IMG/VR virus record: IMGVR_UViG_3300015156_000025
Span: 1-15,163 of that record
Origin: a virus
Taxonomy: Duplodnaviria > Heunggongvirae > Uroviricota > Caudoviricetes
Strand: one strand, 5' to 3'
DNA: 15,163 bases
The notes below the pieces were generated by a model, which made no database searches, was not told where the DNA came from, and saw only the letters and a list, made by a program, of their open reading frames with translations. Positions 43 through 15,144 of the stretch are shown one piece after another. Every line of letters starts with the position of its first letter. Within the stretch, counting starts at the first letter, position 1. The translations under genes were made by a program, and so were the position numbers.

Positions 43-118
<76 letters not shown>

Positions 119-488: not shown

Positions 489-1031
489 TTATTGGCTTTC
501 TCCGCATAACGCTAATTTCATTGGTATATACAGAATGTGTTCAGCAACACCCAACCATGCATCAATGCGATTTCTGCAAGTTTTCAAGCTCCAGCCAGGG
601 CGATACTTATTTAACTGTTGTGCCATTTTCAGCTTACTCATCCCCCGCCCTTCATATCTTTGTCGGAGGATAAAAATCAATCCTGGGTGTTCTGCCAGCA
701 CTTCACTAATCACACGATCAATGCATAACGCCTCTGCATCATTACAATGCACCAGCCAGCTTTTTTGCTTACCGTTGATCATATCCCGCAAAAAAGCCTC
801 AAGTTCAGGTTTGTCCAGACCTGCTTTTTTCATCCTCCGGAGCGCCTCGTTAATTGCCGTTTTTGTCAGCTTTTTAGAGGTCAGCAACTGGTTGAACATA
901 TTTCCCGTCTTACCGCCGCCAATATACGACCAGCGCCCCCACATGCGCAGTTTGCCCTGAATCCAGACACTTTCCAGCGTGGCGAGACGAAGGTGTTCTC
1001 CGCTTTTTCCTGTATTCGTTGGGTAAATCAC
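489..1031 (-). CDS. Q-family late-gene antiterminator (phage 82/21 QuuD-like class), probable GTG start
   Basis: Supplied ORF 489..1151 contains the motif IQGKLRMWGRW and a later cysteine/acidic segment HCNDAEALCID, which parallel what I recall of DLP12 QuuD (IQMVLERWGAWA; CCDDDAMIICG). A GTG at 1029..1031 overlaps the TGA of the upstream gene and is preceded by AGGAGG. The ATG at 1151 would overlap the upstream gene by 124 nt in another frame. Confidence 0.65.
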   Translation of the reverse strand: MIYPTNTGKSGEHLRLATLESVWIQGKLRMWGRWSYIGGGKTGNMFNQLLTSKKLTKTAINEALRRMKKAGLDKPELEAFLRDMINGKQKSWLVHCNDAEALCIDRVISEVLAEHPGLIFILRQRYEGRGMSKLKMAQQLNKYRPGWSLKTCRNRIDAWLGVAEHILYIPMKLALCGESQ

Positions 1032-1318
1032 AAATATCCCTCCTTTCTCCAGATTTCTTGTGTGCGAAAAACACCTTCTGCATGCATCAGGCGCAATTCT
1101 TCTTTGGTGTAATCGCTGGTTTTTACCCGCCCGTCGATTAAATCGTGGCATGAGCTACAGGCAATTGCCGCCTGCATATCGTGTGGTTTTGTCGCTGTTC
1201 CACACGTCCCCGCCAGCCTGTAATGCGCCAGCACAGAAGTTTCGGGATTGTGATTGCAGTAGCCAGGAATTCTGACGGTGCACATCTGCCCCCGCGCCGC
1301 TTTACGTAAATCCACCAT
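1028..1318 (-). CDS. ybcO: YbcO-like protein (DUF1364, putative nuclease of lambdoid nin regions)
   Basis: 96-aa ORF; MVDLRKAARGQMCTVRIPGYCNHNPETSVLAH...IACSSCHD matches what I recall of DLP12 YbcO (ADLRKAARG..C.VRIPG.CN.NPETSVLAH..IACS.CHD). Its ATG overlaps the upstream stop (TAATG). Confidence 0.8.
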   Translation of the reverse strand: MVDLRKAARGQMCTVRIPGYCNHNPETSVLAHYRLAGTCGTATKPHDMQAAIACSSCHDLIDGRVKTSDYTKEELRLMHAEGVFRTQEIWRKEGYL

Positions 1319-2401: not shown

Positions 2402-2557
2402 TTACTCCTCAGGTTCGTAAGCTGTGAAGACAGCGACCTCCGTCTGGCCGGTTCGGATTCGTACCTCGCAGAGGTCTTTCCTCGTTACCAGTGCCGTCAC
2501 TATGACGGTTAAACAGATGACGATAAGGGCGATTAACATCGCCTTTTGCTGCTTCAT
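2402..2557 (-). CDS. hokD: Hok/Gef-family membrane toxin, hokD (relF)-like, 51 aa
   Basis: MKQQKAMLIALIVICLTVIVTALVTRKDLCEVRIRTGQTEVAVFTAYEPEE has the Hok hydrophobic helix and the conserved C-E-V/I-R core. ATG at 2555..2557 is preceded by AAGGAG at 9-nt spacing. The supplied 70-aa ORF is an in-frame upstream extension. Confidence 0.85.
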   Translation of the reverse strand: MKQQKAMLIALIVICLTVIVTALVTRKDLCEVRIRTGQTEVAVFTAYEPEE

Positions 2558-2910
2558 AGCCTGCTTCTCCTTGCCTTTCGGCACGTAAGAGGCTAACCTA
2601 CATGTGTTCAGCATGGATTGAGCCTCAGATTAATGTTAAGCGTCTTGCAGGACGCGTAATGTTAACTGGGGCTTTTCTCTATCTGCCTTTTGGTGTTCAT
2701 GCCTGAGACAGATAGCCTCAAGCACCCGCAGCAATTCTACTTATGACGCAATTTAATGACAACAACTCTACAGCGGTAGTGTGTTTAACTATTGACATTG
2801 ATTAACTCATTATTCAAAATTTTTGCGTACGCATTAATGATTTTGTGTCGTTGTTGTGATGGTAAAAAAATCACAAACGATCTAACAATAACATAGGTGA
2901 TATTTTCAAT

Positions 2911-4053
2911 ATGGAAATTAAGCAAGTTATCGTTCATGAACTAATTAAAGAAGCAAAAAAGGATTTTGATTTTTCTAAGCCGTATCAGCTTAGATCCACT
3001 CCTCTCGATAAAACCAATCCAATTGTTATAAAACTTATTCAAGACATTTCATCTTTATATGGAACCAAAGGCAATTCTGCACATTATGGCGTTTTTAAAG
3101 AGGAGAAAACAGAACAAGGGCCTGTGCCATCAATATTTGAAGAGTATTCTCAGTCAGAGGATAACATTAATGAAAAGTTTGTGCCTTTTTCTATTGAAGT
3201 GATGAAGCAACTTGTAAAAAAAGCCAAAGAAGAACCTTGGTCATCTGGTGGTTTTATTGTGTTTTGTGACTATATTGTAAATAACAATAAATTCTTTTTA
3301 ATTGCAATGATTAAAAAGAAAAATGGTGTTACTATCAGCAACAAACTCGAACCTGAAGAAATGATCCATTTGGATCTATCCAAAATACACCAAGCAGCAA
3401 GAATAAATTTCAATCTCTACCAACAATATAAAACTGCTGATGAGTCTGAAAAAATTGACTTAAGTTATCTAAGTTTCGTAAGTAAAGGAGTGGGTCAATC
3501 CACATCAGCATATTTTATTGCAGCAATAGGATGCGACAAATCACTTGCAGCAGCAAAAGCCACAAAAAAACTACCAACTGTCGCAAAACAATTTTTTAAC
3601 CAAAAACCAGAACTTAAAGCATGTGCCAATAGATTTAAATATGACGTTATTGCATATTTAGACACACAAGCAGCTAAAAATTTGTCAGCCCGATTGAGTG
3701 ATATTGAAGTAATTGCAGCACGTCACATGACAAATTTAGATGAGTCTACCAAAGAATCTTACACTCACGAATTAATTCTTTTTTTAAATAGTGAAAATGT
3801 GAGAATTCCAACTGAATTTGTTATCAGTAAACGGGCGTTGAAAGACATTAAAAACATCACCTTTAAGACTGATGAGATTGGATTTAATTTTGACAAGTCT
3901 CTCCTTGGAGTGACAGCTGATGATGATGTGTGGTACGATGAAACAACTGGAAGATTATCATTTACAAACTTACCAGCTGAATTTAAGGCTAAACTAAGCG
4001 CTGTGGTAAAAGAAAATTTAAAACTAAGGGATAGTGGAAAAGAAAATGGCTAA
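2911..4053 (+). CDS. Divergent nucleoid-associated protein homologue (YejK/NdpA family), 380 aa
   Basis: Motifs in the supplied translation parallel what I recall of E. coli YejK: QVIVHELIK (QIALHQLIK), AHYGVFKEE (KAYGLFSEE), SGGFIVFCDY (DGGFVLFCHY), YLSFVSKGVGQ (YLTFLKGRVGR). AGGTGA lies 10 nt upstream of the ATG. Confidence 0.7.
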   Translation: MEIKQVIVHELIKEAKKDFDFSKPYQLRSTPLDKTNPIVIKLIQDISSLYGTKGNSAHYGVFKEEKTEQGPVPSIFEEYSQSEDNINEKFVPFSIEVMKQLVKKAKEEPWSSGGFIVFCDYIVNNNKFFLIAMIKKKNGVTISNKLEPEEMIHLDLSKIHQAARINFNLYQQYKTADESEKIDLSYLSFVSKGVGQSTSAYFIAAIGCDKSLAAAKATKKLPTVAKQFFNQKPELKACANRFKYDVIAYLDTQAAKNLSARLSDIEVIAARHMTNLDESTKESYTHELILFLNSENVRIPTEFVISKRALKDIKNITFKTDEIGFNFDKSLLGVTADDDVWYDETTGRLSFTNLPAEFKAKLSAVVKENLKLRDSGKENG

Positions 4054-5266
4054 TTTATCAACGGTTGTAGATTTTTATAGAGCATCATCGAAGCCCCAAT
4101 TCGACGGACGTTCTTTTTCTGCAACTGTTGAAATAAATAATAACAATCAACGTTTGGTAAACTTGTTAGTAAATTCACATAAAGCCTACGGTTATTTTGA
4201 AGATGTTGATATTAATAATGAGTTCATTGACGAAGACGATTTAAAATCACACCCAATTAAAATTGGAGATAAATTCTCATACACTTACATATCCCCTAAA
4301 AATGGAGCAGAACGTTTCTATAACTCAATTCAAGAGTTCCTTTGTATAAACTCACTCAAGAAAGGTGTAATTCCTAAAGAGTATTACATAATCGATGAGG
4401 ATTTTCATCCGTCTGATTCAAGTAAACCGGACGAAATTATAAAAATCGAGAAAATTTGTGCAATTATTTCTTCCCTGGCTGAGATTGCGCACTTTCACGA
4501 TACAAAATCGGAATCTTCAAATTATCGTTTAGTTTTCGTGAAAGATTCTGACGCAAAATCAACATCTATTATTTTAGAAACGTGCATTACACCTAAGATG
4601 CTCAATATAAATGACATTGATGATGCTATCATCAAGAGTCTTTTAGATGTAAAAAACGCCCAAATCCCCCATCAAGCAGAAAAAACAGGTATTTTCAGGA
4701 ATACCATAGTGGAGTTTATTCTCGATAACAAATATGATTTTGAAAACCTAATTTGCCATTGGGATAAATTTGTAAAGCTATTTGAAAATAATTTATCCAC
4801 GTATATGAGTGGTTTTTCATTCCATAAGGCACGAAAAGAAATTGCGAAGTCTGAAGCAGAGTTTGCTGAAAAAATCTCAAAACTTATTACTGATTTGACG
4901 ACAAAAGTATTATCAATCCCTGTGTCTTTACTGGCATCCTTCGGGATTATAAAACTAACATCAAGATCTGAAATGTTACTCGTTTTATTAGGTGTATTGT
5001 TAAGCTCACTTATTTTATATATGGTATTACTCAATCAGGATAAACAATTAAAACATATTTACCATGCTAAAGATATAGCATTTATGCCTTTTCTAAAAAA
5101 CAATGAAAATTATCCAGAAGACCTTAAGAAGGACATTAATGAGGCTTTATATGAACTATCAAAGAGCCAAACCAAATGTGATAATACAATAAAGTTATTT
5201 ATGTATTTGGCTTGGCTACCAAGTTCTATTGCAGCAGGAATATTTCTTGCGAAGATTTTTATTTAG
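4046..5266 (+). CDS. Hypothetical protein with large soluble N-terminal region and C-terminal 2-3 hydrophobic helices (candidate membrane effector)
   Basis: ATG at 4046 overlaps the upstream stop (ATGGCTAA); a GTG at 4034 is the alternative start. Hydrophobic runs VLSIPVSLLASFGIIKL, MLLVLLGVLLSSLILYMVLL and IKLFMYLAWLPSSIAAGIFLAKIFI lie in the last ~120 residues. I recognise no domain in the N-terminal part. Confidence 0.7.
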   Translation: MANLSTVVDFYRASSKPQFDGRSFSATVEINNNNQRLVNLLVNSHKAYGYFEDVDINNEFIDEDDLKSHPIKIGDKFSYTYISPKNGAERFYNSIQEFLCINSLKKGVIPKEYYIIDEDFHPSDSSKPDEIIKIEKICAIISSLAEIAHFHDTKSESSNYRLVFVKDSDAKSTSIILETCITPKMLNINDIDDAIIKSLLDVKNAQIPHQAEKTGIFRNTIVEFILDNKYDFENLICHWDKFVKLFENNLSTYMSGFSFHKARKEIAKSEAEFAEKISKLITDLTTKVLSIPVSLLASFGIIKLTSRSEMLLVLLGVLLSSLILYMVLLNQDKQLKHIYHAKDIAFMPFLKNNENYPEDLKKDINEALYELSKSQTKCDNTIKLFMYLAWLPSSIAAGIFLAKIFI

Positions 5267-5275
5267 CTCTAACAG

Positions 5276-5791
5276 TTAGAGCATTAATACTCCCTCCAAT
5301 ACTCCCATCACTGCTTGTATTTTTTTTCTAATAGTCCCATCCGCACATTTCTTTCTTTTTGCGATCTTTCTCAAAGAAACGCCTATTACAAAGTGGGCAA
5401 CAATTAACTCATATTCATCTATTTTATATTGTCTGAGTCTCAATATCCACTCATCAATCACTCGCCCTTCATCATCGCTGCTCTGGCGACGCAATTTTTT
5501 ACCATGAGGCACAACATCTTTATATTTATCAGCCACTTGCTGCCAGTTGATAGAACTATTTCCAGCTACAGCCCAAGCTCCCCAACAGTCCAAAATATCA
5601 TATATATTAGCATTGCTATCCACCTGTTTTTTATATTCTTTTTTGAAGCGAGCAAGAAGCATCCTGGCCATCGTTATTATTTCTATACTTGTAACTGATT
5701 CATAAGCATCAGGAGAAATAATCCTCCCATCACTTAATGCCCTTTCACTAAGATTTGCTATTTCCAATAATCGTTCTTTAGTTATTTCCAT
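5276..5791 (-). CDS. Second Q-family antiterminator paralogue with about 60-aa N-terminal extension
   Basis: IYDILDCWGAWAVAG and C-terminal CADGTIRKKIQAVMGVLEGVLML parallel what I recall of QuuD (ERWGAWA...CCSDGYIGKRLQKAEGIIEGMLMAL). ATG at 5789..5791 has GGTGGAG 6 nt upstream; the supplied 5803 start is a GTG. Confidence 0.6.
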   Translation of the reverse strand: MEITKERLLEIANLSERALSDGRIISPDAYESVTSIEIITMARMLLARFKKEYKKQVDSNANIYDILDCWGAWAVAGNSSINWQQVADKYKDVVPHGKKLRRQSSDDEGRVIDEWILRLRQYKIDEYELIVAHFVIGVSLRKIAKRKKCADGTIRKKIQAVMGVLEGVLML

Positions 5792-5951
5792 TATTATCTC
5801 CACCGCCCTTTCGGGCAGCCTCCTGATGATTTGAGGGTGCAGGAATTCCTCCGGTTAAGGACTCTATTTTATTCACAGTGCTGAATTTAATTATTCAGAT
5901 TTGGATTATGCTTTCTCTTTCACTTCACCAAGTTCCGATTGTTAATTTGGC

Positions 5952-12051: not shown

Positions 12052-15000
12052 ATGAGCACAAAACCACTCTTCCTTTTACGGAAAGCGAAAAAATCATCCG
12101 GTGAACCTGACGTCGTCCTGTGGGCAAGCGACGATTTTGAATCAACCTGTGCCACTCTGGACTACCTGATCGTTAAGTCAGGTAAAAAACTGAGCAACTA
12201 TTTTAAAGCTGTTGCCACAAATTTTCCTGTCGTTAATGAACTTCCCCCTGAAGGTGAGATCGATTTTACCTGGTGTGAACGCTATCAACTCAGCAAAGAC
12301 TCCATGACCTGGGAACTAAAACCGGGAGCAGCGCCAGACGACGTTCACCATCAGGAGGATGCACAGGAAACCGAAGAACCGACGGGAGGCCAGGAAGAAA
12401 ACGCGCAGGCAGACGCCCACGAGGATTGCCAGGATTGCGAAGTCTCTGTAGCCACTTTGCGGTTCACACAGCGTCTTCTGCACATTTTTACGTATGCAGC
12501 CGGGGATCGAAAATACCTGCATCATGCCACCCGTGAACAACGCAAACACATTACTGCTCTTGAGATGGATCAGGAAAACAGCTATGTCCAGAATCTGCTG
12601 TTGGCCATACGCAGCATGGCAGAACCGACAACTCTGGATAATGCCGCCCTGCTCCGCCTGACTGATGCAATTAAGGCAGTGTTCTCTATCACGAAAAAAC
12701 ATCAGCCCTATGAATTTAAGAATTTCATTTCAGCCTGGCTGGATACCGAACACATTGATCGCGGTCTTCTGACAAAAGAATGGCGAAAAGGGAATCGTGT
12801 TTCACGCATCACTCGCACGGCTTCCGGTGCTAATGCTGGCGGCGGGAACCTCACCGATCGCGGCGAAGGTTTCGTCCACGATCTGACGTCACTGGCGCGC
12901 GATGTAGCCACTGGCGTACTGGCCCGTTCAATGGACGTGGACATCTATAACCTTCATCCGGCACACGCTAAACGCATTGAGGAAATTATCGCTGAAAATA
13001 AACCGCCCTTTTCTGTTTTCCGCGACAAATTCATCACCATGCCTGGCGGGCTGGATTATTCCCGCGCCATCGTGGTTGCGTCCGTGAAAGAAGCACCAAT
13101 AGGGATCGAGGTCATCCCCGCACACGTCACTGAATATCTGAACAAAGTACTGACTGAAACCGATCATGCCAACCCTGATCCGGAAATCGTGGATATTGCC
13201 TGCGGTCGTTCCTCTGCCCCGATGCCGCAGCGTGTAACAGAAGAAGAAAAACAGGATGATGAAGAAAAACTGCAACCATCTTGCGCAATGGCAGATGAAC
13301 AGGCAACGGCTGAAACAGTGGAACCGGATGCAACTGAACATCATCAGGACACGCAGCCGCTGGATGCTCAGTCACAGGTAAATTCTGTTGATGCGAAATA
13401 TCAGGAACTGCGGGCAGAACTCCATGAAGCCCGGAAAAACATTCCATCAAAAAATCCTGTCGATGCCGATAAATTACTTGCTGCATCACGTGGTGAATTT
13501 GTTGACGGAATTAGCGACCCGAACGATCCGAAATGGGTTAAGGGGATCCAGACTCGCGATTCTGTGTACCAGAACCAGCCAGAAACGGGAAAAACCAGCC
13601 CGGATGTGAAACAACCTGAGCCAGTAGTGCAACAGGAACCGGAAATAGTCTGCAATGCCTGCGGTCAGACTGGCGGAGATAACTGCCCTGACTGTGGGGC
13701 GGTGATGGGCGACGCAACATACCAGGAAACATTCGATGAAGAGAATCAGGTTGAAGCTAAGGAAAAAGATCCGGTGGAAATGGAAGGCGCTGAACATCCG
13801 CACAATGAGAATGCTGGCAGCGATCCGCATCGTGATTGCAGTGATGAAACTGGTGAAGCGTCAGCTCCTGTAGCAACTGAAATCATGTGGCCGTCATATT
13901 TCGAGCCTGGCCGCTATGAAAACCTCCCGAACGAGGTTTATCACTCCGCCAACGGAATAAGCAGCACGATGCTGAAGGATGCCCGTATCAGCCTGATGTA
14001 TTACCACGGACGGCACATTGCCGGAACTATTCCGAACGAGGAAAGTGATGCACTGCTGCGTGGGCGGATCATTCACAGCTATGTTCTGGAAACGGATAAA
14101 TTCGCTGATGAATATGCCATTCCGGTACCGGTTCCTGAATATGTGGTTACTACTTCTAGCGAACTGATCGCCATCATTAAAAAACACAATGCCAGTCTGC
14201 CAGCACTGATGACACCAGAGCAGATGAAAGAGTGGATCGAAAGCTACAACAGCACTCTTATACAGCCACTGTCTGTAAGTGCCGGGGCCGAAGAAACAGG
14301 CATCCTTTACGGTTCGCTTCCGGTGGAGTTTCGGCGTATTCCTGAGGGGGAAAAACACACAGCATCAGCAATGAAAGCCTGTATTAAAGAATACAACGCA
14401 AGCCTCCCTCCTCTGTTGAAAACCAGTGGAGCACGGGAGCAGCTTCTGGATCAAATTGAAACTGTAGACCCAGAACTGGCAAAAAAAGAACGTGCTAAAT
14501 CTTTGCCTTACAACATCAGTGGCACAAAAGAGCAATTAACCGAAATCGCACGGAAAATTCGCCCGGAACTGGTGACACTGGAGGACTGGCAAAAACGCCA
14601 GCAAGAAGAAAATGCCGGGAAAACGTTTATCAGTCCGGATATGTATGAACAGGCAAAAAATATTCACGCGGCACTGCAAAACAATACCGATGCAGCAAGG
14701 CTACTCAACCACCCGGATCGCAAATCTGAAATCAGCTATTTCGGGTTTGATGAAGAAACCGGGCTGGAAATCAGGGTCCGTCCTGATATCGAAATCCGGC
14801 TGCCATACGAAAGCATTTGCGCTGACGTGAAGTCAGTCAGCCTCGGTTATGTGCGACAGGAACGACTTAAAGATCGCCTGCACCGTGAAATTATTGAGCG
14901 TGATTATCACCTCAGCGCCGCAATGTATTGCGATGTGGCAAACCTGGACAAATTTTTCTGGATCTTCGTCAACAAAGATGCTGGCTATCACTGGGTGGTA

Positions 15001-15144
15001 GTCGTGGAAGCCTCGCAGGAACTCCTGGAACTTGGTCGACAGGAATATCGCCGGACGCTACGCCAGATAAACGAAGCCATGGAGACAAACAACTGGCCAG
15101 CACCGATTACCGAAAGTTATACAGATCGGAAGAGCGTCGTGTAG
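12052..15144 (+). CDS. recE: RecE-family exonuclease VIII, mosaic long variant (1030 aa)
   Basis: N-terminus [26 protein letters not shown] and the central region ([40 protein letters not shown]... through the CxxC...CxxC zinc-ribbon-like motif) match K-12 RecE as I recall it. The C-terminal nuclease region is divergent and longer. Confidence 0.9.

What the first reader, a model, noticed from the sequence alone, without database searches (positions are those of the whole stretch)
2911..5266. Candidate two-gene defence/abortive-infection module: NdpA/YejK-like protein coupled to a membrane-anchored protein
Seen: two co-directional genes in a visibly AT-rich island inside a prophage, with overlapping stop and start (ATGGCTAA). 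The first carries motifs of the YejK/NdpA nucleoid-associated family; the second has a soluble N-terminal region and C-terminal hydrophobic helices. Inference: a nucleic-acid-binding sensor paired with a membrane effector is the logic of many abortive-infection systems, and prophage morons are a known reservoir of such systems. I do not recognise this pairing as a named system.
Basis: partly seen in the sequence, partly recalled or inferred. Interest (0 to 1): 0.85.

Follow-up and report, generated by a model that had tools for sequence, protein, structure and literature searches.

The report
Prophage YejK-like sensor plus membrane effector
This is a real two-gene prophage cassette, a DNA-binding YejK-like protein translationally coupled to a membrane protein, and it is a distant, untested relative of the anti-phage system DS-1 validated in 2025-26 rather than an unnamed new kind of system.

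Summary
Gene A (2911-4053, 380 aa) and gene B (4046-5266, 406 aa) overlap by ATGGCTAA in a cassette of 32-33% GC inside a Rac-like lambdoid prophage.

- **Gene A:** a full-length NA37/YejK protein (Pfam E 4e-51).
- **Gene B:** an acidic soluble N-domain with no solved structural relative, followed by three family-conserved hydrophobic helices.
- **Named relative:** both proteins hit NCBIfam's DS1_1 and DS1_2 anti-phage models, but far below the equivalog cut-offs. They are 26-27% identical to DS-1A and DS-1B over the local BLASTP matches. DS-1 is a validated E. coli defence system (DefensePredictor, Science 2026).
- **Same architecture:** a 2026 preprint describes "type II PANGU", in which a nucleoid protein released by phage-induced genome degradation binds the acidic domain of a membrane effector and causes abortive infection.
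- **Linkage:** the A-B pairing held in every locus I examined, about 75 loci (several redundant) from Enterobacterales, Pseudomonas, Vibrio and beyond. The two proteins co-diverge (r 0.94).
- **Placement:** in lambdoid phages the pair almost always sits tail-to-tail against the Q antiterminator gene.

I rate it a new member of a known kind, moderate interest. This clade's activity, its trigger and the effector's action remain untested.

The parts
2745..5266 (.). AT-rich cassette (GC about 0.32-0.35) carrying the two genes. The left edge lies just after the hok/sok sequence shared with thousands of E. coli genomes.
   Evidence: Composition profile. Only window 2700-2744 of the query is shared with about 3400 E. 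coli genomes, whereas the full cassette is in 4 of 5426.
2792..2820 (+). Candidate sigma-70 promoter of the operon (TTGACA, 17 nt, CAAAAT), about 90 bp upstream of gene A.
   Evidence: Consensus scan, 10 of 12 matches. The total number of promoter-like sites in the region is not above the shuffled expectation, so this is a candidate only.
2895..2899 (+). Shine-Dalgarno-like AGGTG, 11 nt before the ATG of gene A.
   Evidence: Read directly from the sequence.
2911..4053 (+). Gene A: 380-aa YejK/NdpA-like nucleoid-associated protein (NA37 fold, full length); the putative DNA-bound sensor.
   Evidence: Pfam PF04245 174.7 bits. PHROG 3767 E 1e-72. NCBIfam YejK 138 bits (cut-off 341) and DS1_1_antiphage 99.9 bits (cut-off 330). 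YejK structure 9be2_A E 4e-14 over residues 2-355. 26% identity to DS-1A over 144 aa.
4046..4053 (+). ATGGCTAA: the start codon of B overlaps the stop codon of A (translational coupling).
   Evidence: Sequence. RefSeq annotates the same start. In related loci the A-B gap ranges from -38 to +39 bp.
4046..5266 (+). Gene B: 406-aa effector candidate, a remote homologue of DS-1B.
   Evidence: NCBIfam DS1_2_antiphage 105.1 bits (cut-off 315). PHROG 5023 E 7e-70. BLASTP to DS-1B 27% over 162 aa, E 1e-14. Family of 1037 50%-identity representatives. AF2 model pLDDT 86.3.
4046..4759 (+). B residues 1-238: acidic alpha/beta N-terminal domain (net charge -11, pI 5.1); the putative docking site for A (a 'DNA-mimic'-type domain).
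4895..5032 (+). B residues 284-329: two adjacent hydrophobic helices (a putative transmembrane hairpin) at the end of a 50-residue helix.
   Evidence: Kyte-Doolittle windows 1.68 and 2.83. Family-mean hydropathy 1.76 and 2.28. Helices 239-288, 290-303 and 307-351 in the model. P292 is invariant in 46 sequences.
5195..5260 (+). B residues 384-405: C-terminal hydrophobic helix (putative third transmembrane segment).
   Evidence: Hydropathy 1.78 and family mean 1.76. Helix 391-405 in the model.
5234..5250 (+). Terminator-like hairpin followed by a T-run, overlapping the last codons of B.
   Evidence: Consensus scan; a candidate only.
5276..5803 (-). Convergent Phage_antitermQ gene whose stop codon lies 9 bp from the stop of B. 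It is a conserved neighbour of the cassette.
   Evidence: Pfam PF06530 101 bits. A convergent Q-like gene abuts B (-19 to +80 bp) in 43 of 47 viral contigs, and in 19 of 22 clusters at 70% identity. The same arrangement appears in L004, L006, L024, L025, L028 and L030.

Best explanation
The two genes form a prophage-borne two-component anti-phage system of the 'nucleoid-protein sensor plus membrane effector' kind. It is a divergent clade of the DS-1 family and has the architecture of type II PANGU.

Proposed working:
1. In the lysogen the operon is transcribed from its own promoter, on the strand opposite to the phage genes.
2. Protein A, a YejK-like protein, sits on chromosomal double-stranded DNA.
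3. Protein B sits in the inner membrane through a helical hairpin (about residues 284-329) and a C-terminal helix (about 384-405). Its acidic N-terminal domain and long connecting helices face the cytoplasm.
4. When an infecting phage breaks down the host chromosome, A loses its DNA substrate and becomes free.
5. Free A binds the acidic N-domain of B. This switches B into a state that damages membrane integrity or energisation.
6. The infected cell stops supporting phage growth (abortive infection).

Shown here: homology of both proteins to DS-1A and DS-1B, strict operon linkage and co-divergence, the domain architecture, the acidic N-domain, and the mobile-element and defence-hotspot locations.

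Shown by others for related or analogous systems: defence by DS-1; and for type II PANGU the requirement for both genes, lack of toxicity of the genes expressed alone, an abortive-infection phenotype, T4 escape through denA mutations, nucleoid-to-cytoplasm relocation of the sensor, and nanomolar binding of the sensor to the effector's acidic domain.

Inferred: that this clade defends at all, that its trigger is genome degradation, and that B acts on the membrane.
For: - **Family assignment.** A is NA37/YejK over its full length. A and B hit the NCBIfam anti-phage models DS1_1 and DS1_2 (E 1.4e-28 and 4.2e-30).
- **Direct comparison with DS-1.** Using the DS-1 sequences from Table S8 of PMC13092281, BLASTP gives E 1e-8 and 1e-14. 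Gene order and sizes match (391+404 aa against 380+406 aa).
- **DS-1 is validated.** From its native promoter on a low-copy plasmid it gave -log EOP of 7.6 on Bas1, 2.7 on Bas26, and 1.7 on Bas3 and T3.
- **PANGU type II description**.
- **Acidic N-domain.** B residues 1-238 carry net charge -11; the family median (residues 1-285) is -13.
- **Membrane segments.** Three hydrophobic segments are conserved across the family.
- **Linkage.** Every B-family gene examined has a co-directional NA37 gene directly upstream: 22 of 22 loci, 47 of 47 viral contigs, plus a Klebsiella phage and a Pseudomonas plasmid. Four A homologues chosen independently, in five loci, were each followed by a B-family gene.
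- **Co-divergence.** r = 0.944 over 26 pairs; Mantel test 0 of 5000 permutations reached it.
- **Contexts typical of defence cargo.** The Q-to-lysis interval of lambdoid prophages; a P2-like prophage between gpD and ogr; a P4-like satellite; an island with BrxR and a type I R-M methylase; a plasmid next to a NACHT gene.
Against: - No experiment exists for this clade. It scores about 100 bits against equivalog cut-offs of 315-330, and is only 20-22% identical to DS-1 in global alignment.
- DS-1A carries an N-terminal zinc ribbon that A lacks.
- Sequences of Pag2A and Pag2B were not available to me. A second, unrelated NAP plus C-terminal-TM family exists in E. coli prophages (L029), so I cannot say which family is 'type II PANGU'.
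- PADLOC-DB v2.0 has no hit.
- Membrane insertion rests on hydropathy and an AF2 model only. DS-1B is less hydrophobic.
- The mode of action of the effector is unknown even for PANGU type II.
Confidence: 0.7

Rival explanations
1. Superinfection exclusion or another non-suicidal prophage function. B acts at the membrane to block DNA entry or lysis timing of incoming phages, and A serves as a regulator rather than a damage sensor.
For: The cassette is prophage-borne, B is predicted to be a membrane protein, and it lies in a prophage region rich in exclusion and kil genes in relatives (sieB and kilR in L029). DS-1 gave more than 7 logs of protection against Bas1, which plating efficiency alone cannot assign to either mode.
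Against: The analogous type II PANGU system behaves as abortive infection, and T4 escapes it through mutations in a host-DNA-degrading nuclease, not in an injection function. Strict coupling to a DNA-binding NA37 protein is not explained by an entry block.
Confidence: 0.1
2. A toxin-antitoxin or addiction module that stabilises the prophage. B is a membrane toxin held in check by A; any defence is a by-product.
For: It is a two-gene, translationally coupled operon on a mobile element. It sits next to a bona fide hok/sok addiction module. A membrane-active partner is plausible as a toxin.
Against: For type II PANGU neither gene was toxic alone, and both were needed for defence. Both proteins are about 400 aa, and A has no antitoxin-type DNA-binding or degradation-tag features, only a complete NA37 fold. 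In the Pantoea stinkbug symbiont both genes, not one, are decayed.
Confidence: 0.08
3. A 'stealth' nucleoid protein. A is a mobile-element-encoded NAP that modulates host or prophage transcription, as reported for NdpA-like proteins of plasmids (from my own knowledge). B is merely a co-transcribed membrane protein of unrelated function.
For: A is a complete NA37 protein. The cassette is AT-rich foreign DNA. A review of NAPs carried by mobile elements surfaced in my literature search, but I did not read it (PMC6606824, listed).
Against: The linkage is invariant, the genes are translationally coupled, and A and B co-diverge strongly. Both are homologous to the two components of a validated defence system.
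Confidence: 0.05

Closest known systems
DS-1 (DefensePredictor-discovered system 1; working id D390; WP_000355468.1 + WP_000150292.1; DeWeirdt, Mahoney & Laub, Science 2026, PMC13092281)
   Same: A two-gene operon in the same order: a YejK/NA37 protein, then a protein of about 400 aa. Both proteins are detectably homologous to A and B. The gene junction is equally tight (2 bp there, -8 bp here). It comes from E. coli.
   Different: Only 26-27% local (20-22% global) identity, and well below the NCBIfam equivalog cut-offs. DS-1A has an extra N-terminal NinF-like zinc ribbon. DS-1B has weaker hydrophobic segments. DS-1 is experimentally validated; this clade is not.
Type II PANGU (Pag2A NAP + Pag2B TM effector; Li et al., bioRxiv 10.64898/2026.04.06.716658)
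   Same: A bicistronic YejK-like NAP plus an effector with an acidic N-terminal domain and a C-terminal transmembrane region. It is found in E. coli and across phyla and is associated with defence loci.
   Different: Sequence membership could not be tested because no Pag2 sequences are held. A second, unrelated NAP+TM family with the same layout exists (L029 type), so either family could be Pag2. The paper does not discuss a prophage or Q-adjacent location (the word 'prophage' occurs 0 times).
Type I PANGU (Pag1A + GRel toxSAS Pag1B; same preprint; PDB 9UFP)
   Same: The same sensor class (YejK-like NAP) and the same proposed logic of sensor release from the nucleoid followed by binding to an acidic domain of the effector.
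   Different: The effector is a soluble nucleotide pyrophosphokinase that makes pppGpp, not a membrane protein. B has no such domain.
YejK (E. coli chromosomal nucleoid-associated protein; PDB 9BE2)
   Same: The same fold family over the whole length.
   Different: A scores 138 bits against the YejK equivalog cut-off of 341. It is carried on a mobile element, is AT-rich, and is always paired with B. It is a paralogue, not the housekeeping gene.
Lambda RexA/RexB (from established knowledge, not tested here)
   Same: A prophage-encoded two-gene abortive-infection system in which a cytoplasmic sensor activates an inner-membrane partner and the membrane potential collapses.
   Different: No sequence relationship was found in any search. 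RexA is not an NA37 protein, and RexB is a four-helix membrane protein without a large cytoplasmic domain.

Membership tests
NA37 / YejK-NdpA superfamily (Pfam PF04245) | Full-length match to the NA37 profile above the gathering score. | tested here: met
   174.7 bits against a cut-off of 24.6; residues 7-358 cover profile positions 1-324 of 325. YejK structure 9be2_A E 4e-14.
Housekeeping YejK (NCBIfam NF001557 equivalog) | Score at or above the equivalog cut-off. | tested here: not met
   138.1 bits against a cut-off of 341. The gene lies in a prophage cassette present in only 4 of 5426 E. coli genomes.
DS-1 (NCBIfam NF053868 / NF053869 equivalogs) | Both proteins reach the equivalog cut-offs. 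| tested here: not met
   A scores 99.9 against 330; B scores 105.1 against 315. The hits are significant (E 1e-28 and 4e-30) but mark a different clade.
DS-1 family in the broad sense | Homology of both components to DS-1A and DS-1B, with the same gene order and tight coupling. | tested here: met
   BLASTP E 1e-8 and 1e-14. DS-1B scores 59.9 bits against the HMM of B's clade. The order is NA37 then partner, with junctions of -8 and +2 bp.
DS-1 family in the broad sense | N-terminal zinc ribbon on the NAP component (DS-1A residues 3-26). | tested here: not met
   A starts directly with the NA37 domain at residue 7. The ribbon is reported for DS-1A in Table S5.
DS-1 family in the broad sense | Anti-phage phenotype when expressed from the native promoter. 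| not testable with these tools
   Shown for DS-1 only.
Type II PANGU (Cluster 2) | A YejK-like NAP and its partner in one operon (gap under 40 bp). | tested here: met
   8-bp overlap. The gap in all related loci ranges from -38 to +39 bp.
Type II PANGU (Cluster 2) | Effector with an acidic N-terminal 'DNA-mimic' domain and a C-terminal transmembrane region. | tested here: met
   Net charge -11, pI 5.1 for residues 1-238. Three conserved hydrophobic helices in residues 284-405. Mimicry of DNA shape was not assessed.
Type II PANGU (Cluster 2) | Sequence match to the Pag2A and Pag2B profiles. | not testable with these tools
   No sequences or accessions are in the held text and no supplements are held. 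A second candidate family exists.
Type II PANGU (Cluster 2) | The NAP binds the effector's acidic domain, relocates on infection, and phage escape maps to a host-DNA nuclease. | not testable with these tools
   Reported for PANGU-Ecu only.
CorA-like ion channel | CorA-type alpha/beta N-domain plus stalk helix and two TM helices with the GMN motif. | tested here: not met
PADLOC-DB v2.0 defence systems | Any profile hit. | tested here: not met
   0 families for either protein at E up to 1.

The most novel reading that the evidence does not exclude
This cassette represents a distinct, experimentally untouched clade whose effector uses an N-terminal domain of a fold with no solved relative as the receptor for a DNA-free nucleoid protein, and then opens or disrupts the membrane.

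Its near-invariant placement tail-to-tail against the phage Q gene would be functional rather than accidental. Transcription of the prophage's own early or late operon would run antisense through B and A on induction and switch the suicide system off, so that the phage can complete its own lytic cycle.
Probability: 0.2. Interest if true: 0.6.

Novelty: new member of a known kind. Interest (0 to 1): 0.4.

Why it matters
**Annotation gap.** Current pipelines call these genes 'nucleoid-associated protein' and 'hypothetical protein', and PADLOC v2.0 misses them. The B family has about 1000 representatives at 50% identity, each copy I examined being paired with an NA37 gene. A large block of probable defence systems is therefore unannotated.

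**A tractable example of an open mechanism.** The clade offers a compact, natural E. coli prophage example for the unanswered part of the PANGU and DS-1 story: how a freed nucleoid protein activates a membrane effector. I also provide confident domain models and conserved positions that can be mutated.

**Prophage genome organisation.** The conserved A, B, convergent-Q arrangement, together with an alternative NAP+TM cassette at the same hok-Q junction, points to a defence hotspot in lambdoid prophages.

Tried and rejected
- **PADLOC-DB v2.0:** no hit for either protein.
- **GenBank phage records:** no near-identical DNA. By protein search only 2 phage and 4 plasmid records hold a B relative.
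- **PDB sequence search with the B-family profile:** nothing significant.
- **Diverse alignment A2 for the locus scan:** it had no conserved stretch usable for the search, so I used A1 instead.
- **Foldseek against AFDB50:** I wanted to test whether B's N-domain resembles the acidic domain of GRel toxSAS proteins, but the library was unavailable.
- **Identifying PANGU-Ecu by sequence:** not possible, because the preprint text has no accessions and no supplements are held.
- **Second gene of the alternative cassette in L029:** tested as a possible distant B-family member and rejected (my HMMs found no hit; hhalign probability 0.8%).
- **Locating the late promoter relative to the cassette:** the consensus promoter scan was not informative, with sites no more frequent than in shuffled sequence.
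Full report
**1. Observation**

The window holds two co-directional ORFs on the + strand. Gene A is 2911..4053 (380 aa). Gene B is 4046..5266 (406 aa from the ATG). The ATG of B and the TAA of A share the octamer ATGGCTAA at 4046-4053.

The family alignment begins at this ATG, and RefSeq annotates the same start in four complete E. coli genomes. GC content is 0.31-0.35 between about 2750 and 5300, against about 0.50 on both sides. At that composition, open frames of 380 and 406 codons would occur by chance with probability about 1e-13 to 1e-14.

The neighbours show a Rac-like lambdoid prophage:
- a hok/sok module at 2402-2727 on the minus strand (also Rfam sok, 118.9 bits);
- DUF1367, YbcO and a DUF1133 Q-like gene on the left;
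- a Phage_antitermQ gene (5276-5803, minus strand), DUF977, DUF1627, a DnaC-like gene, a replication initiator, Cro-like and repressor-like genes, and a 1030-aa ORF at 12052-15144 on the right. In the related prophage of strain 602354 the corresponding position carries a gene annotated 'exonuclease'; I did not search the window ORF itself.

The pair is transcribed against the direction of all the phage early and late genes.

**2. What the proteins are**

*Protein A.* It matches Pfam NA37 (the YejK/NdpA family) end to end (174.7 bits, E 4e-51). It aligns with the solved E. coli YejK structure 9BE2 over residues 2-355. It scores only 138 bits against NCBI's YejK equivalog model (cut-off 341), so it is a paralogue carried on a mobile element, not the housekeeping gene.

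*Protein B.* It has no Pfam domain. An AlphaFold2 model built on 21 homologues is confident (pLDDT 86.3) and shows three parts:
- an alpha/beta N-terminal domain (about residues 1-238);
- a 50-residue helix (239-288);
- helices 290-303, 307-351, 358-388 and 391-405.

Hydropathy analysis gives three hydrophobic segments at 288-306, 311-329 (the strongest, 2.83) and 384-406. The same three segments stand out in the mean profile of 46 diverse family members, while nothing in residues 1-270 exceeds 0.64.

The N-terminal part is acidic. Residues 1-238 have net charge -11 and pI 5.1. Across 46 family members, the region equivalent to residues 1-285 has a median of -13, range -23 to -3.

**3. The pairing is named**

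NCBIfam release 20 returns two matches:
- 'DS1_1_antiphage, nucleoid-associated anti-phage protein' for A (99.9 bits, E 1.4e-28);
- 'DS1_2_antiphage' for B (105.1 bits, E 4.2e-30).

Both are far below the equivalog cut-offs of 330 and 315.

DS-1 is DefensePredictor-discovered system 1 (working id D390) of DeWeirdt, Mahoney and Laub (PMC13092281). It is a two-gene unit from an E. coli isolate: WP_000355468.1 (391 aa; YejK domain plus an N-terminal zinc ribbon), followed 2 bp later by WP_000150292.1 (404 aa, hypothetical). It was cloned with its native promoter on a low-copy plasmid and scored as a replicated defence system.

In the screen table it gave -log EOP of 7.6 on Bas1, 2.7 on Bas26, 1.7 on Bas3 and T3, about 1 on T5 and T7, and only smaller plaques on SECphi27. 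The paper lists the YejK domain as newly validated in defence and offers no mechanism for DS-1.

I compared the published sequences directly. A against DS-1A gives 26% identity over 144 residues (E 1e-8). B against DS-1B gives 27% over 162 residues spanning the helical and hydrophobic region (E 1e-14). DS-1B scores 59.9 bits against an HMM of B's own clade. The window pair is therefore a remote homologue of both DS-1 components, in a different clade, and it lacks the zinc ribbon.

**4. A mechanism published for the same architecture**

Li et al. (bioRxiv 10.64898/2026.04.06.716658, April 2026) define 'PANGU', operons that pair a YejK-like nucleoid-associated protein with an effector. [quoted passage not shown]

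For the E. coli system PANGU-Ecu they report:
- both genes are required;
- neither gene is toxic alone;
- growth and phage yield behave as in abortive infection;
- T4 escapes through mutations in denA (endonuclease II, which degrades host DNA);
- Pag2A-GFP leaves the nucleoid on infection;
- Pag2A binds the isolated acidic domain with a KD of 19 nM.

How Pag2B is activated and what it does is stated to be unknown.

The window pair has every architectural feature in that description. I could not test sequence membership, because the preprint text holds no accessions and no supplements are held. The preprint does not cite DS-1.

One caution applies. At the same prophage junction, another E. coli strain carries a different cassette with the same layout (section 7). 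Either family could be the one called Pag2.

**5. Linkage and evolution**

A word-indexed search found 47 B clusters, all in Enterobacterales. An exhaustive profile search found 1037 representatives at 50% identity (208 with E at or below 1e-30). Most of the 150 listed are full length, about 400-430 aa; the rest are fragments.

I checked gene neighbourhoods in three ways:
- **Starting from B.** All 22 loci from genomes and assemblies had a co-directional NA37 gene directly upstream, with a gap of -26 to +39 bp. Hosts were E. coli, Serratia, Xenorhabdus, Dickeya, Proteus, Providencia, Ewingella, Pantoea, five Pseudomonas, Vibrio, and two MAGs labelled Moraniibacteriota and Lewinella.
- **In IMG/VR.** All 47 viral contigs had it. 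These fall into 22 clusters at 70% identity.
- **Starting from A.** Four A homologues at 39-72% identity, seen in five loci, were each followed by a B-family gene scoring 390-471 bits.

A Klebsiella temperate phage and a conjugative Pseudomonas plasmid carry the pair as well. Pairwise identities of A and of B across 26 distinct pairs, DS-1 included, correlate with r = 0.944, and no permutation out of 5000 reached that value. The two genes are therefore inherited as one unit without partner exchange, and B diverges faster than A.

In the genome-reduced Pantoea symbiont both genes are broken (L021).

**6. Where the pair sits**

The exact cassette is rare: 4 of 5426 complete E. coli genomes, and three IMG/VR contigs carry an identical B.

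Relatives occupy recognised cargo positions:
- between gpD and ogr of a P2-like prophage;
- in a P4-like element with an integrase, AlpA and a primase;
- in an island with BrxR and a type I methylase;
- beside a NACHT gene on a plasmid;
- most often in lambdoid phages, between the Q antiterminator gene and the lysis cassette.

The 3' end of B abuts the 3' end of a convergent Phage_antitermQ-like gene (-19 to +80 bp) in 43 of 47 viral contigs, and in 19 of 22 non-redundant clusters. In the window the two stop codons are 9 bp apart.

Phage transcription through or beyond Q would therefore run antisense into B. Whether this silences the cassette during induction is my speculation. I could not place the late promoter.

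**7. An alternative cassette at the same junction**

In E. coli KFu022, the interval between hok and the same Q-family gene holds a different AT-rich pair (GC 0.35). It consists of a 352-aa NA37 protein (49.6 bits) and a 477-aa protein with an acidic N-terminal part (net -10) and C-terminal hydrophobic helices.

The second gene is unrelated to the B family (no HMM hit; hhalign probability 0.8%). It has at least 101 clusters of relatives. In the other two contexts examined, a Citrobacter/E. coli integrase island and a Sphingomonas chromosome, an NA37 gene again lies directly upstream.

The hok-Q junction thus behaves as a hotspot where NAP-plus-membrane-protein cassettes alternate.

**8. Mechanism, with the status of each step**

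Established here:
- A is a YejK-fold protein.
- B has an acidic soluble domain and conserved hydrophobic helices.
- The genes are translationally coupled, strictly linked and co-diverging.
- Both are homologous to the two components of a validated defence system.
- The cassette is mobile-element cargo with a candidate promoter of its own (TTGACA, 17 nt, CAAAAT at 2792-2820).

Established by others for DS-1 or PANGU: the defence phenotype, and the sequence of sensor release, acidic-domain binding and abortive infection.

Inferred for this locus:
- A coats chromosomal DNA.
- Host-DNA degradation by an infecting phage frees A.
- Free A binds B's N-domain.
- B then compromises the membrane.

On the likely topology, with the N-domain cytoplasmic, the hairpin at 284-329 crosses the membrane and returns. 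The 330-384 helix is then cytoplasmic and the last helix crosses again. This has not been tested.

I put the defence assignment at about 0.8, and the full mechanism as stated at about 0.55-0.7.

Rivals are a non-suicidal exclusion function, a toxin-antitoxin addiction module, and a 'stealth' nucleoid protein with an unrelated co-transcribed membrane protein. Each is weakened by the PANGU genetics, the strict coupling and the homology to DS-1.

**9. Verdict**

The kind of system is therefore no longer new.

What is new is modest:
- a divergent clade below annotation thresholds;
- an effector N-domain with no solved structural relative;
- a very conserved position against the Q gene;
- a second NAP+TM family at the same hotspot.

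I rate it a new member of a known kind, interest 0.4.

Noticed in passing
L029:3408-5871 (E. coli KFu022, NZ_CP091677.1); also L079, L080 and L081: At the same hok to Q-family junction of a Rac-like prophage sits a different AT-rich cassette. It pairs a 352-aa NA37 protein with a 477-aa protein that has an acidic N-terminal part and C-terminal hydrophobic helices. The second gene is unrelated to the B family (hhalign probability 0.8%). It has at least 101 clusters of relatives, all unannotated, and NA37 lies directly upstream in 3 of 3 contexts. It is a second NAP plus membrane-protein lineage and may be the published type II PANGU or another PANGU-like cluster.
   Followed up: partly
window 5266-5276, and L032-L078: The B gene ends tail-to-tail against a convergent Phage_antitermQ-like gene, with stops 9 bp apart in the window. 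The same holds in 43 of 47 viral contigs (19 of 22 clusters at 70% identity), often with overlapping stop codons. This leaves no room for a terminator between convergent transcription units.
   Followed up: partly
window 2402-2727 (-): A complete hok/sok type I toxin-antitoxin module (Pfam HOK_GEF E 3e-23; Rfam sok 118.9 bits) lies immediately left of the cassette. About 184 bp separate its upstream end from the start of gene A.
   Followed up: yes
window 489-1151 (-) and 5276-5803 (-): The prophage carries two Q-like genes: a DUF1133 protein (with a weak Phage_antitermQ match) near the tRNA and lysis side, and a Phage_antitermQ protein next to the cassette. The latter gene is also low in GC (0.37-0.39). 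It occurs in about 59-61 E. coli genomes, of which only 4 have this cassette.
   Followed up: partly
window 46-118 (-): A tRNA gene (Rfam RF00005, 55.6 bits) lies at the left end of the window. In the related prophage of strain 602354, tRNA-Arg, tRNA-Arg and tRNA-Ile lie between the methyltransferase and the holin genes.
   Followed up: no
L004:3432-4154 (-) (Xenorhabdus hominickii prophage): A gene with a Tad2-like domain (PF11195, the anti-Thoeris family) lies about 700 bp from the A-B pair, in the same Q-to-lysis interval. A defence cassette and a candidate counter-defence gene are therefore neighbours.
   Followed up: no
L021:5262-7140 and L002:4866-5999: Decayed copies. In the Pantoea stinkbug symbiont both A and B are fragmented. 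In Serratia marcescens ATCC 274 gene A is split into 233-aa and 105-aa ORFs while B is intact.
   Followed up: no
L017 (MAG labelled Candidatus Moraniibacteriota) and L023 (MAG labelled Lewinella): Intact A-B pairs at about 27-38% identity occur on contigs binned to a CPR bacterium and to a Bacteroidota member. This is either wide horizontal spread or a binning artefact.
   Followed up: no
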